This document shows, piece after piece, positions 7,697-13,233 of a stretch of 64,000 nt of DNA. The notes under the pieces were generated by a model. That model was not told where the DNA came from. It saw only the letters and a program-made list of their open reading frames with translations, and ran no database searches. Position 1 is the first letter of the stretch; every line of letters starts with the position of its first letter. The position numbers and the translations under genes were made by a program. The stretch is from Escherichia phage SD2: sequence record PQ821640. The stretch is one strand, 5' to 3'.

Positions 7697-7724
7697 TTGA
7701 CATACTGTTTTATTGTGCTAATCT
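7697..7724 (+). promoter_or_regulatory. sigma70-like promoter (TTGACA-16-TAATCT)
   Basis: TTGACA at 7697-7702, -10-like 7719-7724, upstream of ORF starting 7757. Confidence 0.5.
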
Positions 7725-9216: not shown

Positions 9217-10344
9217 ATGAAATACACGATTTATGGTGATATTGTAAGTGTAAATAAAGATATGGGTGTGGAATCTAATTATCTTCCACCTGGATTCTAT
9301 ACTGTTAGTCGTGATCCCCTTGGCAATTATTTTTTAAGCCGTGGTAATCTAACAGGTGTACCGGATGTTCTGTATGGTGAAACAGAAAAACGAGCAAATC
9401 ACGTTATCCGTACATTCCATCGCCGGAGTGCACAAGGTAAAAATACAGGTTTGCTTCTGACAGGAACTAAGGGCAGTGGTAAAACTATGTTAGCCAAGCT
9501 CATTAGTCGTGACCTTGTAGAAGAAGGTATTCCAACTATTATGGTTACTCAAGCCTACAGTGATGCTAATTTCATTGAACTTATTAGCAAGATCACCGAC
9601 AAAGCAGTGATTATTTTTGACGAGTTTGATAAAGTGTATGAGAAGAAACAAGATCAAGAAGCACTTCTCACTTTGTTAGATGGTACTGGCAGTGGTAATA
9701 AACTGTTTATTCTAACTAAAAACAGTGGCTTTATCTCTGAATTCTTTCTAAATCGTCCTAGTCGTGTGTTTTATAATTTTAATTATGATAAAATCTCACT
9801 AGAAACTATGATTGACTATTTAGATAAAAACCTGGATAACAAAGCACACTTTGATAATTTCCAAAGACTTTGGGATGTAAGTTTAGAGTTGTCCTTTGAT
9901 GTGATCCAAGGTATAGTAGAAGAACTTAATTTCTACCCTGATTTATCCTTTAAAGAATGCATCTCTATGATGGGCGTTTCTTTGGGTGGTGGTAATAAAT
10001 GGGATATCAGCAGCGTTGTTATTAATGGAAAACTTCAGAAAGTTAGCTGGGTATCTAGTTGGCATAACTTCACACCTGCAATCTTTTTAGGTGGTTCGTG
10101 CACACTAGACGTGTACTTGTCATCTCCAAGTGATGCAGACTCTAAAGAAGCCCTTGCTAATAGCTCTTACGTGGTTTTTGATGATGAAGGCGATGCTCGA
10201 ATTCCATTGAATGCGACAAAAATGAAAGCAGATCTTATTACAGGCGGTAAAATCGTTGTGTTTAGTGATGATCCAGAAGATTCTTTCCGTATTGTTCTGG
10301 AACCAACTATCACCAATGGTGCAACTTTGGCAAGTGTGTTTTAA
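9217..10344 (+). CDS. AAA+ family ATPase
   Basis: Walker A GTKGSGKTMLAK; Walker B VIIFDEFD. Confidence 0.75.
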   Translation: MKYTIYGDIVSVNKDMGVESNYLPPGFYTVSRDPLGNYFLSRGNLTGVPDVLYGETEKRANHVIRTFHRRSAQGKNTGLLLTGTKGSGKTMLAKLISRDLVEEGIPTIMVTQAYSDANFIELISKITDKAVIIFDEFDKVYEKKQDQEALLTLLDGTGSGNKLFILTKNSGFISEFFLNRPSRVFYNFNYDKISLETMIDYLDKNLDNKAHFDNFQRLWDVSLELSFDVIQGIVEELNFYPDLSFKECISMMGVSLGGGNKWDISSVVINGKLQKVSWVSSWHNFTPAIFLGGSCTLDVYLSSPSDADSKEALANSSYVVFDDEGDARIPLNATKMKADLITGGKIVVFSDDPEDSFRIVLEPTITNGATLASVF

Positions 10345-10360
10345 GTAAGCCAGCAAATAA

Positions 10361-10385
10361 AAACCCGCTTCGGCGGGTTTTCTTG
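10361..10385 (+). terminator. rho-independent terminator
   Basis: CCCGCTTCGGCGGG hairpin followed by TTTTCTT. Confidence 0.75.
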
Positions 10386-10418
10386 CATTAATGCCAGATT
10401 TAATAAGAGGAGTAGTAG

Positions 10419-11408
10419 ATGGCAGCACCAAAATCATGGGAACAATATAAAGAAGAGTGTATACCAATAGCAGAGAGTAAGCAAATCCAAATCTTAGGAT
10501 GGACGGGACAATGGAAAGGGGTCCACACAAAACTTGATTTGTTGTGCCATTGTGGTTATAAATGGGATACTACAAGTATTAACAGTTTTAAATGTGGTAG
10601 CGGTTGTCCACAATGTAGGAGGAAGAATATAAGGAAGTCACAAACAATGTCCGACGATCAACATATTGCAGATTTCTTTTCTACAGGGGAATTTAAGGAA
10701 GGCACTATCTTCACTAACACAGGAACACGGGGTAAAGGATGTAGGAATATTATCTGGATGGTTGAATGTCCTGTTTGCTCTCATGATGAATATGTTCAAG
10801 CAGGTGTTTGTGATGGTAAATTTTACTCTGAAGGAGATAACCTTAAACGAGGGTATATTCCGTGTCGTTGTGGGAACTATCGGTATACAGAAGACCAGAT
10901 CACCTATAGGGTAAAAAAGGAAGTAGAAGGGAAAGGGTATGTCTGGGTAGATTGGATTACCAAACCCTCTTCTATAGGTAAGTTTAAATATCTTTGTCTT
11001 GTGCATGGTGAGCAGATAGGGAGTGCTAATAATTTATTAAGCCTCGGTCGAGGTTGTCCTATGTGTGCTGGTCATAGTCAGCAGCAGTTATATATTAATA
11101 TTGTTAAGGATGATAATATTATAGTTGCTCTTAAGTTTGGTATAGCTAAAGATAGTGATAGGCGATTAAACATTCAAAATAGCCGTAATCTGTTTTTTAT
11201 GGAACGTATTTGTTTATATGATTTTAGCACAGTGAAACAGTGTAAGGCTGCTGAAAGAGCTATAAAGAAAAAATTAAAAACTGGTATTTTAACAGCAAGA
11301 GAGTTGAAAGACGGTCATACAGAAACAGTAAGTGTTTCTGATTTGGAAAATCTTCAAAAAATTATTACACAATATGGTGGCAAGTTAGTATACAATAAGG
11401 AGGTGTAA
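10419..11408 (+). CDS. Cys-rich zinc-ribbon repeat protein, C-terminal T5orf172/GIY-YIG-like region
   Basis: Repeated CxxC pairs (CHCGYKW, GCPQC, CPVCSHDEY, CRCG, GCPMCAGH); AGAGGAG SD. Confidence 0.65.
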   Translation: MAAPKSWEQYKEECIPIAESKQIQILGWTGQWKGVHTKLDLLCHCGYKWDTTSINSFKCGSGCPQCRRKNIRKSQTMSDDQHIADFFSTGEFKEGTIFTNTGTRGKGCRNIIWMVECPVCSHDEYVQAGVCDGKFYSEGDNLKRGYIPCRCGNYRYTEDQITYRVKKEVEGKGYVWVDWITKPSSIGKFKYLCLVHGEQIGSANNLLSLGRGCPMCAGHSQQQLYINIVKDDNIIVALKFGIAKDSDRRLNIQNSRNLFFMERICLYDFSTVKQCKAAERAIKKKLKTGILTARELKDGHTETVSVSDLENLQKIITQYGGKLVYNKEV

Positions 11409-11960
11409 ATGCGGATTACTGATAAGTATGTGTTCTTCTTTTCAGCAAAAGATGAATTTAGCAACTGGTATCTATCATCTTTTATTGAACCTTTAGCACC
11501 CAAGTATAATAATTCTATTACAAGTTCTGTTGAATTTACTTGTGTGGAACAATATATGATGTGGAGAAAAGCATGTTTGTTTTATGATTACAGTATTGCA
11601 TCTTCTATTTTAACCGGAGATCTAAGATATACAGGAGAAAAAGAACAAGCATATTATAAGCGACTAGGCAGATTAGTTAAAGATTATGATGAAGATACCT
11701 GGACTTCTTTACGGGAGAAGATTGTCAAACGTGGTTTGTATCTTAAATACACACAAAATGAAGATCTCAAAAATAAACTTATAACCTACGCAGATAAGGA
11801 GTTCGTAGAGGCAAGCCCTTATGATTCTATTTATGGTATCAAAATGGGGATGTGGGATCGTGACGTGGAAAATAAGGACTGTTGGAAAGGACAAAATCTT
11901 TTAGGAAAATGGCATACAGACCTTGCTGTTTATCTAAAAGCACAATCTGATATTTCCTGA
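11409..11960 (+). CDS. NADAR (YbiA-like, DUF1768) domain protein
   Basis: FFFSAKDEFSNWYLSSF, EQYMMWRKA and GQNLLGKWHTDLAVYL align with my recollection of E. coli YbiA; AAGGAGG SD. Confidence 0.7.
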   Translation: MRITDKYVFFFSAKDEFSNWYLSSFIEPLAPKYNNSITSSVEFTCVEQYMMWRKACLFYDYSIASSILTGDLRYTGEKEQAYYKRLGRLVKDYDEDTWTSLREKIVKRGLYLKYTQNEDLKNKLITYADKEFVEASPYDSIYGIKMGMWDRDVENKDCWKGQNLLGKWHTDLAVYLKAQSDIS

Positions 11961-12020
11961 TATTTTGAAAATTTTTATTTTTATAAAAAGGGGTGTGGGT
12001 TTCATGTACGGAAATTCACC

Positions 12021-12041
12021 CTCTGAATAATATATTCAGAG
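12021..12041. repeat. perfect inverted repeat CTCTGAATA-ATA-TATTCAGAG
   Basis: 9-bp stem, 3-nt loop, read directly; overlaps a second palindrome CAGAGTA...TACTCTG (12037-12062). Confidence 0.6.
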
Positions 12042-12174
12042 TAAATATTATTTTGTACTCTGTTAATAAATTATTTAATTTGTTTGTTGGATTATGATAT
12101 CTGGTTTTTAAAAGGCATACTATCTCTTAACTACTACTTATAACAGAACAGTAAAATCATTTTTATAAAAAGGA

Positions 12175-12382
12175 CAAAATTATTTAAAGTTTTTACAGAT
12201 TTTTGGATACAAATTTTGAAAATGAAAAGTTCAAGTTTGGTCAAAATTATTTAAAGTTTTTGTATGTATTTCTATCCAGATTTTGAAAATGAAAACTTCA
12301 ATTTTTTAAAAATTCCCCAGTTTATTTAAAGTTTTTTTACCTTTTTCCGTAGAAAAATCAAAAATGAAAAGTTCAATTTCGT
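12175..12382. repeat. three tandem direct repeats of about 68 bp
   Basis: Each unit begins TTATTTAAAGTTTTT and ends TTTTGAAAATGAAAAGTTCAA; AT-rich, non-coding. Confidence 0.7.
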
Positions 12383-12400
12383 GTTTTTATGGGTATGCGT

Positions 12401-12515
12401 ATGATAATCATTCTCATTTGTAAATGAGAATCATTATCATTTAATTATGTAAATGATAAGCATTCTCACTAAGAGAATGAGAATCATTAGCAAATGAGAA
12501 TTTTTCTCATTTGCA
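12401..12515. promoter_or_regulatory. cluster of five or more Fur-box-like dyad motifs
   Basis: ATGATAATCATTCTCATT, AATGAGAATCATTATCATT, ATGATAAGCATTCTCA, GAGAATGAGAATCATTAGC, AATGAGAATTTTTCTCATT; compare E. coli Fur box GATAATGATAATCATTATC. Confidence 0.45.
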
Positions 12516-12772
12516 GAATAACGCGCAGGGGCGGTGTTTGTCTCGCGCTCCCGTGTCCCCTCGCCATACAATAAGAATAGCATAACCAACAACAAAAGCA
12601 AGCGATTATTTTTATCTTTACATTTCTTTACAAATTTATTTTAGACGAGCTACCGGCGATCAACCTTCCAACCAGTGCCCCTGGTATGTTAGCCCCGCCT
12701 TTACGCCGTGGGGGTGGCGCTTCCTCTTCTGTATGTAAAACAGTATAAGCCCGATCCCTGGGCTTGTCAAGA

Positions 12773-13039
12773 TTATTTTTTGTTTTCTTGCCAGGATAGG
12801 ACACCTAACCAAAAATACATGTCGCCCCGTGCCCCTGGCGGGATCTTGCTTTCCCCGCCGCCACTGCAAGCCCATAAATAACCATTTACGAACGTATCAA
12901 AGTGATCTATCTCTTCCACCTTATGATCGCCCAGGTTGAGAACGGTTTCAACCTTTAAGCCCGTTGCGCTTGCTACCTGGTGCACCGTGCCGCCTTGCCA
13001 GCCCAATGAGTGCATGAGATGTAAAGGAGTATTTGTCAT
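12773..13039 (-). CDS. hypothetical protein inside a GC-rich, compositionally atypical segment
   Basis: 88-aa ORF on the opposite strand to the surrounding plus block, within 12520-13130 which is visibly GC-richer; overlapping track ORFs in other frames judged spurious. Confidence 0.4.
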   Translation of the reverse strand: MTNTPLHLMHSLGWQGGTVHQVASATGLKVETVLNLGDHKVEEIDHFDTFVNGYLWACSGGGESKIPPGARGDMYFWLGVLSWQENKK

Positions 13040-13149
13040 GGTATCGCCCTTTCTTTGATGTGCGCCCTGGTTGGCGCGGTAGAAAGATAATAGCCGTTTC
13101 CTTTATAGATAGCAAGCAAAAAAGAAATGAAAAAAGATTAAAAAAATGG

Positions 13150-13209
13150 TTGACGTTCCTCACCTGGTAGCGTAGTATTCATCTTGTCGAGGGGCGGCAA
13201 TAGTGCCGC
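13150..13209 (+). promoter_or_regulatory. promoter (TTGACG-17-TAGTAT) plus 5' hairpin GCGGC-AATAGT-GCCGC
   Basis: Read directly; upstream of ORF 13234. Confidence 0.6.
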
Positions 13210-13233
13210 TCATAACAGAAGAGAGAAATAATC

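What the first reader, a model, noticed from the sequence alone, without database searches (positions are those of the whole stretch)
10419..11408. Cys-rich zinc-ribbon repeat protein with a possible nuclease-like C-terminus
Four or more CxxC-containing modules are followed by a region resembling T5orf172/GIY-YIG-like domains (KFGIAKDSDRRL). It could be a DNA-binding regulator or a homing-type nuclease at the entry to the early region.
Basis: inference. Interest (0 to 1): 0.4.

Follow-up and report, generated by a model that had tools for sequence, protein, structure and literature searches.

The report
Mobile phage nuclease with zinc fingers
This is a fairly ordinary member of a known class of selfish phage nuclease genes (three CapR-type zinc-finger DNA-binding modules plus a T5orf172/GIY-YIG cutting domain) lying between two conserved genes of a phi92-like coliphage, and it is notable only because close relatives show whole zinc-finger modules being lost, gained and swapped.

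Summary
The ORF is real and lies exactly where stated (10419..11408, + strand, 329 aa). It has three zinc-binding modules, not four or more, and each matches Pfam's CapR homology domain. They are followed by a 114-aa T5orf172 domain. That domain models confidently as a GIY-YIG nuclease fold and keeps the Tyr/Arg/Glu catalytic set; E279 aligns with the experimentally required E180 of ICP1 Odn.

The window is a Justusliebigvirus (phi92-like) coliphage. The gene sits between an AAA-ATPase gene and a NADAR gene. Related phages have this slot filled with 3-, 4- or 5-module alleles, empty, or occupied by a DNA methyltransferase. Homologs sit at unrelated loci in other phages.

The window allele differs from the 4-module allele by exactly 201 nt, lost (or gained) at a short repeat shared by adjacent modules. 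In one relative the zinc modules are replaced while the nuclease half and the flanks stay about 97% identical.

All this matches the T5orf172 homing-endonuclease class described for Vibrio phage ICP1 in 2021–2023. Cleavage, target site and homing are untested. Verdict: a new member of a known kind, of low to moderate interest.

The parts
9217..10344 (+). Upstream flanking gene (context): AAA-type ATPase, 375 aa, conserved across Stephanstirmvirinae; left border of the insertion slot
   Evidence: Pfam AAA E=1.5e-9 and PHROG 2376 'ATPase' E=6.6e-108. dN/dS against relatives is about 0.00-0.01.
10353..10386 (+). Terminator-like hairpin after the ATPase gene (AAAAACCCGC-TTCG-GCGGGTTTT), upstream of the nuclease gene
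   Evidence: RNA fold of 10340-10425 gives -22.8 kcal/mol, z=-2.07. The equivalent site is annotated 'terminator' in phage PATM. The consensus scanner did not list it. An empty-slot phage has a different hairpin at the same place.
10405..10412 (+). Ribosome-binding site AAGAGGAG, 6 nt before the ATG
   Evidence: Read directly from the sequence.
10419..11408 (+). Complete CDS, 329 aa: free-standing CapR-repeat / T5orf172 endonuclease gene
   Evidence: ORF; Pfam and PHROG matches; 99.7% identical to a protein of Escherichia phage AV123.
10419..10646 (+). Zinc module A (aa 1-76): helix, three strands, helix; ligands C43, C45, C63, C66
   Evidence: CapR PF21817 44.9 bits on its own. AF2 secondary structure with pLDDT about 80-92.
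10510..10520 (+). Crossover zone AATGGAAAGGG (encodes Q/E-W-K-G) where one 67-codon module is missing relative to the 4-module alleles
   Evidence: To the left of this zone the window matches the start of PATM's module 1. To the right it matches PATM/muut module 2. The extra segment is exactly 201 nt.
10647..10889 (+). Zinc module B (aa 77-157): canonical CapR pattern CxxC...CxC; ligands C117, C120, C149, C151
   Evidence: CapR PF21817 47.2 bits on its own. C117, C120 and C149 are invariant in alignment A1.
10890..11063 (+). Zinc module C (aa 158-215): ligands C193, H196, C213, C216
   Evidence: CapR 21.1 bits (below the 24.2 cutoff when scanned alone) with a weak DUF723 match. The Cys/His ligand columns are at least 90% conserved among 36 homologs.
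11064..11405 (+). T5orf172 / GIY-YIG-fold nuclease domain (aa 216-329): Y225 (GIY-like strand), K239-F-G241 (YIG-like strand), R249, Q253-N254, E279, D298-G-x-T-E302
11397..11403 (+). AAGGAGG ribosome-binding site of the downstream gene, embedded in the last codons of the nuclease gene (stop TAA at 11406-11408, next ATG at 11409)
   Evidence: Read directly from the sequence. phAPEC8 has an analogous arrangement, where the 3' end of the nuclease gene overlaps the next gene's start.
11409..11960 (+). Downstream flanking gene (context): NADAR/YbiA-like protein, 183 aa; right border of the slot in Justusliebigvirus
   Evidence: Pfam NADAR E=5.8e-36; PHROG 1017.

Best explanation
The gene encodes a modular, sequence-directed DNA endonuclease of the T5orf172 homing-endonuclease class.

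Proposed mechanism: three independently folded CapR-type zinc modules arranged as 'beads on a string' each bind zinc through two Cys/His pairs. Together they recognise an extended DNA site. The C-terminal GIY-YIG-fold domain then cuts nearby, using the conserved Tyr225 / Arg249 / Glu279 set, presumably with a divalent metal ion.

The gene is free-standing and lies in the intergenic slot between the ATPase and NADAR genes. During co-infection its product would cut a related phage genome that lacks the gene or carries a sensitive target. Recombinational repair would then copy the nuclease gene and its flanking DNA into the cut genome.

The DNA-binding array evolves by recombination between its own repeats (the window allele is one module shorter than the common 4-module allele) and by swapping modules between alleles. 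This would shift target specificity.

What is shown here: the domain architecture, the fold, conservation of the catalytic and zinc-ligand residues, slot polymorphism, and the repeat-mediated indel. What is inferred: zinc binding, DNA binding, cleavage, the target site, and homing itself.
For: Domains:
- CapR PF21817 E=1.7e-25 in 3 stretches, and T5orf172 above its cutoff.
- PHROG 681 'endonuclease' E=4.7e-68.

Fold:
- The AF2 whole-chain model has pLDDT 87 and pTM 0.49, consistent with loosely coupled modules.
- The nuclease domain alone has pLDDT 93 and pTM 0.86.

Catalytic residues:
- E180 of ICP1 Odn is required for cleavage in vitro and in vivo (PMC8263062, read). It aligns to E279.
- Y225, K239, G241, R249, E279 and E302 are invariant in homologs down to about 26-31% identity.
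- The nuclease half has dN/dS 0.16-0.25.

Mobility signatures:
- In the same subfamily the slot is filled in phAPEC8 and nieznany but empty in phiWec190, KP2025 and phi1_175008. It holds a DNA methyltransferase in FKP3.
- The insertion boundaries map to the span between the ATPase terminator and the next gene's RBS.
- Homologs lie next to the DNA polymerase in Serratia phage Kashira and next to tail gene pb2 in T5.

Repeat dynamics:
- Alleles of 329, 396 and 465-486 aa carry 3, 4 and 5 CapR stretches. Homolog clusters fall into three length classes.
- The indel is exactly 201 nt, at a shared AATGGAAAGGG.
- In PATM the zinc modules are replaced, with no DNA match for 10712-11045, while 11046-12400 stays 96.8% identical.

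Literature: the same architecture and the same dynamics are described for ICP1 T5orf172 homing-endonuclease genes (PMC8096241 and PMC10448857, read).
Against: - No cleavage, DNA-binding or homing data exist for this protein or its orthologs, and no target site can be named.
- Within coliphage Justusliebigvirus the gene appears fixed. All 55 records that cover at least 80% of the region carry it, and none has an empty slot. So there is no obvious pool of empty sites to home into within its own genus.
- Its tight packing with the downstream gene is as compatible with a domesticated gene as with a selfish one.
- The T5orf172 score is only just above the Pfam cutoff, and Pfam GIY-YIG itself is not matched.
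- The His/Tyr usual in the first helix of GIY-YIG enzymes is Gln253 here, as it is absent in Odn too.
- The dN/dS values come from short pairwise comparisons and are noisy.
Confidence: 0.65

Rival explanations
1. It is a domesticated nuclease kept because it benefits the phage. Possible roles are excluding co-infecting relatives (marker exclusion, as with the T4 seg/mob genes) or destroying a parasite such as a phage satellite (as ICP1 Odn does). On this reading, zinc-module reshuffling tracks a changing target in an arms race.
For: - The gene is present and intact in all 55 close relatives that cover the region.
- The nuclease half is under purifying selection, while the DNA-binding half is swapped or resized.
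- It is packed tightly against the downstream NADAR gene.
- The same phage genus is already proposed to carry another T5orf172 protein (a RepA_N fusion in Inny and Muut) aimed at E. coli satellites (PMC10448857).
Against: - No target in a satellite or a competitor was identified.
- CapR-type modules are the usual DNA-binding part of ordinary T5orf172 homing-endonuclease genes.
- The slot shows presence/absence polymorphism in the sister genus, as expected for a selfish element.
- This rival overlaps mechanistically with the main explanation. It differs only in who benefits.
Confidence: 0.2
2. It acts mainly as a sequence-specific DNA-binding regulator, either a repressor like the PLE protein CapR or an autorepressor like I-TevI, and the nuclease domain is inactive or rarely used.
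For: - CapR, the protein that gives the zinc module its name, is a transcriptional repressor that binds a promoter (PMC8096241).
- I-TevI has a dual role as nuclease and repressor (discussed in PMC10448857).
Against: - Unlike CapR, this protein keeps a full T5orf172 domain with invariant Tyr/Arg/Glu and low dN/dS.
- No promoter-like target was found next to the gene. Promoter-like sites in the region are no more frequent than in shuffled sequence: 20 against 16.0 +/- 4.5.
Confidence: 0.07
3. It is a decaying remnant of a homing endonuclease gene with no remaining activity, and the one-module deletion is a step in its degeneration.
For: - The window allele is the shortest length class and arose, or could have arisen, by an internal deletion.
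- Homing-endonuclease genes that reach fixation are expected to decay (general model, from my own knowledge).
Against: - The deletion is exactly in frame and removes one whole module.
- The same short allele occurs in at least a dozen independent phage isolates at 97.6-99% identity (H1-H7 and H9-H13).
- All zinc ligands and catalytic residues are intact, and the nuclease half is under purifying selection.
- There are no frameshifts or premature stops.
Confidence: 0.05

Closest known systems
Vibrio phage ICP1 T5orf172 putative homing endonucleases Gp165 / Gp174 (Netter 2021, PMC8096241; Barth et al. 2023, PMC10448857)
   Same: The architecture is the same: repeated CapR-type zinc-finger modules at the N-terminus and a T5orf172 domain at the C-terminus. 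tblastn gives 32.5% identity over aa 27-258 to ICP1 ORF165. The evolutionary behaviour is also the same. Alleles differ by in-frame loss of one repeat through recombination between repeats (gp174 against gp174*), and DNA-binding modules are swapped between alleles.
   Different: The host phage lineage differs (a phi92-like coliphage, Stephanstirmvirinae), as does the insertion site. The gene is fixed in its genus rather than variably present between isolates. There is one copy per genome in the closest relative AV123, against many paralogs in ICP1.
ICP1 Odn (Gp88), origin-directed nuclease (PMC8263062)
   Same: Both carry a homologous T5orf172 nuclease domain. Odn's experimentally required E180 aligns to E279 here. 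Both lack the His/Tyr usual in the first helix of GIY-YIG enzymes.
   Different: Odn uses a RepA_N DNA-binding domain taken from its satellite target and has no zinc modules. Its role is anti-satellite defence, not homing.
PLE CapR, capsid-operon repressor of the Vibrio cholerae phage satellite (PMC8096241)
   Same: Both have the zinc-finger DNA-binding domain (CxxC...CxC) that defines Pfam PF21817. In CapR, mutating the four cysteines to serine was tested for its effect on DNA binding.
   Different: CapR is described as a DNA-binding repressor derived from such nucleases. The window protein retains the nuclease domain and has three zinc modules.
I-TevI and other phage T4 GIY-YIG homing endonucleases (Seg proteins)
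   Different: The domain order is reversed: the nuclease is N-terminal in I-TevI and C-terminal here. The GIY-YIG subfamily is different (T5orf172, with K-F-G in place of Y-I-G). The DNA-binding modules are different.
Phage T5 protein T5p137 (T5.141) and the T5orf172 domain family; phi92 gp222 and RefSeq 'endonuclease' orthologs in muut, phAPEC8 and nieznany
   Same: T5p137 aligns over aa 148-319 at 27.8% identity and shares the K-F-G...R...E...DGYTET motifs. The phi92-group orthologs occupy the same slot and are already labelled 'endonuclease' or 'CapR homology domain-containing protein'.
   Different: None of these has been characterised experimentally. The orthologs differ in module number (4-5 against 3) and in module sequence.

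Membership tests
T5orf172 domain (Pfam PF10544; GIY-YIG superfamily) | Profile match at or above Pfam's gathering score | tested here: met
   21.5 bits for the whole protein and 24.3 bits for aa 216-329 alone, against a cutoff of 20. The margin is small. Several orthologs fall just below the cutoff at 18.4-20.1 bits.
T5orf172 domain (Pfam PF10544; GIY-YIG superfamily) | GIY-YIG core fold (beta-beta-alpha-beta-alpha) | tested here: met
T5orf172 domain (Pfam PF10544; GIY-YIG superfamily) | Catalytic residues: Tyr in the first strand, Arg in the first helix, and the Glu equivalent to I-TevI E75 / Odn E180 | tested here: met
   Y225, R249 and E279 are invariant in 18- and 36-sequence alignments. 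Odn E180 aligns to E279. The equivalence of Odn E180 to I-TevI E75 is taken from PMC8263062.
T5orf172 domain (Pfam PF10544; GIY-YIG superfamily) | Metal-dependent DNA cleavage | not testable with these tools
   This needs purified protein and a nuclease assay with an E279A control.
CapR homology domain (Pfam PF21817) | Profile match above the gathering score | tested here: met
   Whole protein: E=1.7e-25, 89.4 bits, 3 stretches. Modules scanned alone: A 44.9 bits, B 47.2 bits, C 21.1 bits, against a cutoff of 24.2. Module C passes only in the context of the whole protein.
CapR homology domain (Pfam PF21817) | Two conserved pairs of zinc ligands (CxxC, about 24-26 residues, CxC) | tested here: met
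   Module B has C117xxC120, then 28 residues, then C149xC151. Modules A (C43xC45...C63xxC66) and C (C193xxH196...C213xxC216) are variants with four ligands each. The ligand columns are invariant or at least 90% conserved.
CapR homology domain (Pfam PF21817) | Zinc binding and sequence-specific DNA binding | not testable with these tools
Metal analysis and EMSA are needed.
Free-standing homing endonuclease gene (functional class) | Self-contained gene inserted between conserved genes | tested here: met
   The gene lies between the ATPase terminator hairpin and the next gene's RBS. Comparing the filled slot (phAPEC8, nieznany) with the empty slot (phiWec190) maps the insert to exactly that interval.
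Free-standing homing endonuclease gene (functional class) | Presence/absence polymorphism among related genomes | tested here: inconclusive
   The slot is empty in Phapecoctavirus phiWec190 and in Klebsiella phages KP2025 and phi1_175008, and holds a methyltransferase in FKP3. But all 55 close coliphage relatives carry the gene. So there is polymorphism across the subfamily and none within the window's own genus.
Free-standing homing endonuclease gene (functional class) | Homologs at unrelated loci and in unrelated phage lineages | tested here: met
   Matches were found in 400 phage records (Escherichia, Vibrio, Klebsiella, Aeromonas and others). The homolog lies next to the DNA polymerase in Serratia phage Kashira and next to tail gene pb2 in T5.
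Free-standing homing endonuclease gene (functional class) | Cleavage of the endonuclease-less allele, with copying of the gene into it | not testable with these tools
   This needs in vitro cleavage mapping and mixed-infection crosses.
HNH endonuclease (suggested by PHROG 559) | HNH catalytic motif or domain | tested here: not met
   The PHROG 559 match (E=9.2e-10) covers only aa 30-77, which is zinc module A. No Pfam HNH family is matched even at E up to 1.

The most novel reading that the evidence does not exclude
In coliphage Justusliebigvirus the gene is no longer a drifting selfish element. It is a fixed, beneficial 'programmable' nuclease. Its zinc-finger array is retargeted by module loss, gain and swapping in an arms race with co-infecting relatives or with E. 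coli phage satellites. This would be a zinc-finger analogue of ICP1's Odn, with the 3-, 4- and 5-module alleles representing different specificities.
Probability: 0.2. Interest if true: 0.5.

Novelty: new member of a known kind. Interest (0 to 1): 0.2.

Why it matters
If the reading is right, this gene marks a boundary of genetic exchange in phi92-like coliphages, which are candidates for phage therapy. It also gives a compact natural series of 3-, 4- and 5-module alleles joined to one conserved nuclease domain. Such a series could show how CapR-type zinc modules read DNA and how module number sets specificity. No structure or target is known for either domain type. Beyond that, it adds nothing conceptually new to what was described for ICP1 T5orf172 endonucleases in 2021-2023.

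Tried and rejected
- PDB sequence searches with the single protein and with a family profile found nothing meaningful: best E 0.16-0.28, mostly antibody chains.
- NCBIfam gave no match.
- tblastn of the protein against the window found no paralog; the best other hit had E=0.1.
- Fetching ATPase-linked loci from IMG/VR for a systematic slot survey returned only 4 loci, so I sampled annotated GenBank phages by hand instead. The survey is therefore a sample, not a census.
- The HNH assignment suggested by PHROG 559 was rejected because the match covers only a zinc module.
It is not used as evidence. The link from E279 to I-TevI E75 rests on the published Odn alignment.
- The promoter scan showed no enrichment and no convincing promoter directly upstream of the gene. 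There are no tRNAs in the window.
- A supplement search of PMC10448857 showed that phage Muut is in that paper's phage accession list. It did not show whether this particular gene was listed.

Full report
**1. What is there**

The window has an ATG-initiated ORF at exactly 10419..11408 on the + strand, 329 aa. An AAGAGGAG ribosome-binding site lies 6 nt upstream of the start. No competing long ORF on either strand has any support. The overlapping ORFs of 42-136 aa were not pursued, because the + strand frame carries strong profile matches and they are purely mechanical calls.

The protein has 17 cysteines. The cysteine/histidine pairs are:
- C43xC45 ... C63xxC66
- C117xxC120 ... C149xC151
- C193xxH196 ... 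C213xxC216

That gives three four-ligand zinc sites, not "four or more CxxC modules".

**2. Domain identification**

- Pfam matches the CapR homology domain PF21817 at E=1.7e-25 in three stretches, and T5orf172 PF10544 at 21.5 bits against a cutoff of 20.
- Scanned separately, the modules score 44.9 bits (aa 1-76), 47.2 bits (aa 77-157) and 21.1 bits (aa 158-222) for CapR, against a cutoff of 24.2. The C-terminal 114 aa score 24.3 bits for T5orf172.
- PHROGs places the protein in family 681, "endonuclease", at E=4.7e-68. A second match to an "HNH endonuclease" family covers only zinc module A and is not evidence of an HNH domain.
- NCBIfam has no model for it.
- No solved structure is related by sequence, with either the single sequence or a family profile.

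**3. Structure**

An AlphaFold2 model built on 18 homologs has mean pLDDT 87 but pTM 0.49, as expected for modules that do not pack against each other. Modules A and C share a helix / three strands / short helix / zinc-knuckle layout. Module B is a longer variant.

The C-terminal domain modelled alone has pLDDT 93.3 and pTM 0.86 (36 sequences). Its topology is strand-strand-helix-strand-helix, followed by a further helix and strand.

**4. Catalytic residues**

In alignments of 18 and 36 homologs, reaching down to about 26-31% identity, these residues are invariant: Y225, K239, G241, I242, R249, E279, D298, G299, E302 and T303. Q253 and N254 are invariant or nearly so.

The only T5orf172 enzyme with biochemistry is ICP1 Odn (Gp88). 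It loses cleavage in vitro and in vivo on E180A, and its authors equate that residue with I-TevI E75 (PMC8263062). I fetched Odn from NC_015157. Its E180 aligns to E279 of the window protein.

By position in the predicted fold:
- Y225 sits in the first strand (the "GIY" position).
- K239-F-G241 sits in the second strand (the "YIG" position).
- R249 sits in the first helix.
- E279 sits in the second helix.

As reported for Odn, the His/Tyr usual in the first helix is missing; it is Q253 here.

**5. Genome and neighbourhood**

The region is 99% identical to Escherichia phage AV123 and 96-99% identical to about 50 other Justusliebigvirus (phi92-like, Stephanstirmvirinae) coliphages.

Upstream is an AAA-type ATPase gene at 9217..10344, followed by a terminator-like hairpin at 10353-10386 (-22.8 kcal/mol). 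Downstream is a NADAR/YbiA-like gene at 11409..11960. It starts immediately after the nuclease gene's stop codon, and its AAGGAGG ribosome-binding site lies inside the nuclease gene's last codons.

The gene lies about 2.7 kb inside a + strand cluster that begins near 7697. It is therefore not at a cluster boundary, and nothing here tests when it is expressed. No convincing promoter lies directly upstream.

**6. Evidence on mobility**

The same slot differs between related phages:

| Phage (group) | Slot content |
|---|---|
| muut, PATM (phi92 gp222-like) | 396-aa allele |
| alia | 465-aa allele |
| phAPEC8 (Phapecoctavirus) | 394-aa allele |
| nieznany (Phapecoctavirus) | 486-aa allele |
| phiWec190 (Phapecoctavirus) | no endonuclease; ATPase gene followed directly by the next gene |
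| Klebsiella phages KP2025, phi1_175008 | no endonuclease |
| Klebsiella phage FKP3 | N6/N4 DNA methyltransferase; a CapR+T5orf172/MUG113 gene lies elsewhere on the other strand |

Comparing phiWec190 with phAPEC8 and nieznany puts the insert between the ATPase terminator and the ribosome-binding site of the next gene. Homologs in other lineages sit at unrelated places: next to the DNA polymerase in Serratia phage Kashira, next to tail gene pb2 in T5, and in ICP1. In all, 400 phage records have matches.

Against a simple "actively homing" picture, all 55 close coliphage relatives that cover the region carry the gene.

**7. Module dynamics**

Module number follows protein length. There are 3 CapR stretches in the window protein and 4-5 in the longer alleles. 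The 51 homolog clusters fall into three length classes of about 307-334, 387-432 and 465-483 aa.

At the DNA level the window allele follows PATM's first module up to AATGGAAAGGG (window 10510-10520, encoding Q/E-W-K-G). From the same motif it continues as PATM's and muut's second module. The missing segment is exactly 201 nt, or 67 codons. This is the footprint of recombination between adjacent repeats. The direction, deletion or duplication, cannot be told from this.

The short allele is not an assembly artefact. About a dozen independent isolates share it (single-piece matches H1-H7 and H9-H13).

In PATM the zinc-module region is replaced. Window 10506-10711 is only 74% identical and 10712-11045 has no DNA match. 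The nuclease half and the downstream DNA (11046-12400) are 96.8% identical and the upstream DNA is 98.0%.

Pairwise Nei-Gojobori estimates:

| Region | Result |
|---|---|
| ATPase gene | dN/dS 0.00-0.01 |
| NADAR gene | dN/dS 0.05-0.14 |
| Nuclease domain | dN/dS 0.16-0.25 |
| Zinc modules | dN 0.17-0.60, with dS saturated in PATM and in part of alia |

The zinc-module values indicate exchange of old alleles rather than divergence in place. These estimates rest on 50-113 codons each and are rough.

**8. Comparison with what is known**

Netter et al. 2021 (PMC8096241) showed that the satellite repressor CapR shares a CxxC...CxC zinc-finger DNA-binding domain with the N-terminal parts of ICP1 proteins that carry C-terminal T5orf172 domains, and proposed that these are homing endonucleases.

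The 2023 survey (PMC10448857) found that 87% of 229 T5orf172 homing-endonuclease genes carry CapR, DUF723 or DUF4397 zinc fingers, often repeated. It also found alleles that differ by recombination between repeats (gp174 against gp174*), modules swapped between genes, and such genes lying at boundaries of genetic exchange.

The window gene fits this description point for point. That paper discusses Inny and Muut, which belong to the same genus as the window, but for a different T5orf172 protein with RepA_N domains. Muut is in the paper's phage accession list, but I could not establish whether the gene studied here was listed. RefSeq already labels the orthologs "endonuclease" and UniRef labels them "CapR homology domain-containing protein".

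**9. Verdict**

The "homing-type nuclease" interpretation is supported at the level of family, fold, catalytic residues and genomic behaviour. Activity, target and homing remain inferred.

The main open alternative is that the gene is fixed and useful in coliphage Justusliebigvirus, as an exclusion or anti-satellite nuclease, rather than purely selfish.

It is a new, uncharacterised member of a known kind. The clean 3/4/5-module allele series is a modest point of interest.

Noticed in passing
window 11960-13230: This 1.2-kb stretch downstream of the NADAR gene is poor in ORFs. It holds a 67-nt tandem repeat (12175-12305, 2 copies, 82% match) and a 29-nt repeat (12407-12468). The strongest sigma-70-like site of the region lies on the - strand (12770..12742, 11 of 12 matches). 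Terminator-like hairpins are more frequent than in shuffles (7 against 2.6). The equivalent place is annotated 'repeat_region' in phages muut and alia.
   Followed up: partly
window 11409-11960: This is a NADAR/YbiA-like gene (Pfam E=5.8e-36) packed directly against the nuclease gene's stop codon. Several GenBank records label it 'GTP cyclohydrolase II', which the Pfam match does not support. NADAR domains are linked to reversal of ADP-ribosylation (my own knowledge, not tested), so it may be an anti-defence gene.
   Followed up: no
L006:5181-5900 (Klebsiella phage FKP3) against window 10345-11408: In FKP3 the slot after the ATPase gene holds an N6/N4 DNA methyltransferase (Pfam E=4.6e-34) instead of the endonuclease. 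A 315-aa CapR + T5orf172/MUG113 gene lies about 3 kb upstream on the opposite strand. The slot therefore seems to accept different cargo.
   Followed up: partly
L016:2500-3600 against L004:1500-2600 and L005:4000-5165: Between the endonuclease-less phiWec190 and the endonuclease-bearing phAPEC8 and nieznany, the ATPase gene next to the slot is only 73-74% identical. Genes on either side are 82-92% identical. This would fit co-conversion or exchange tracts next to a nuclease gene, but it rests on one empty-slot genome.
   Followed up: no
GenBank records MG065639, MG065645, MG065656 (hits H39, H40, H48): Records named 'Campylobacter phage' A150, A145 and C3, with host Campylobacter jejuni, are about 95% identical to these E. 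coli phages over the whole 3.4-kb region. This is an unexpected host label for a phi92-like coliphage.
   Followed up: no
window 9217-10344: Different records annotate the conserved AAA-type ATPase upstream inconsistently, as 'FtsH-like protease', 'ATPase or Zn metalloprotease' and 'replicative helicase'. Pfam supports only a generic AAA/P-loop NTPase domain at aa 79-170.
   Followed up: no
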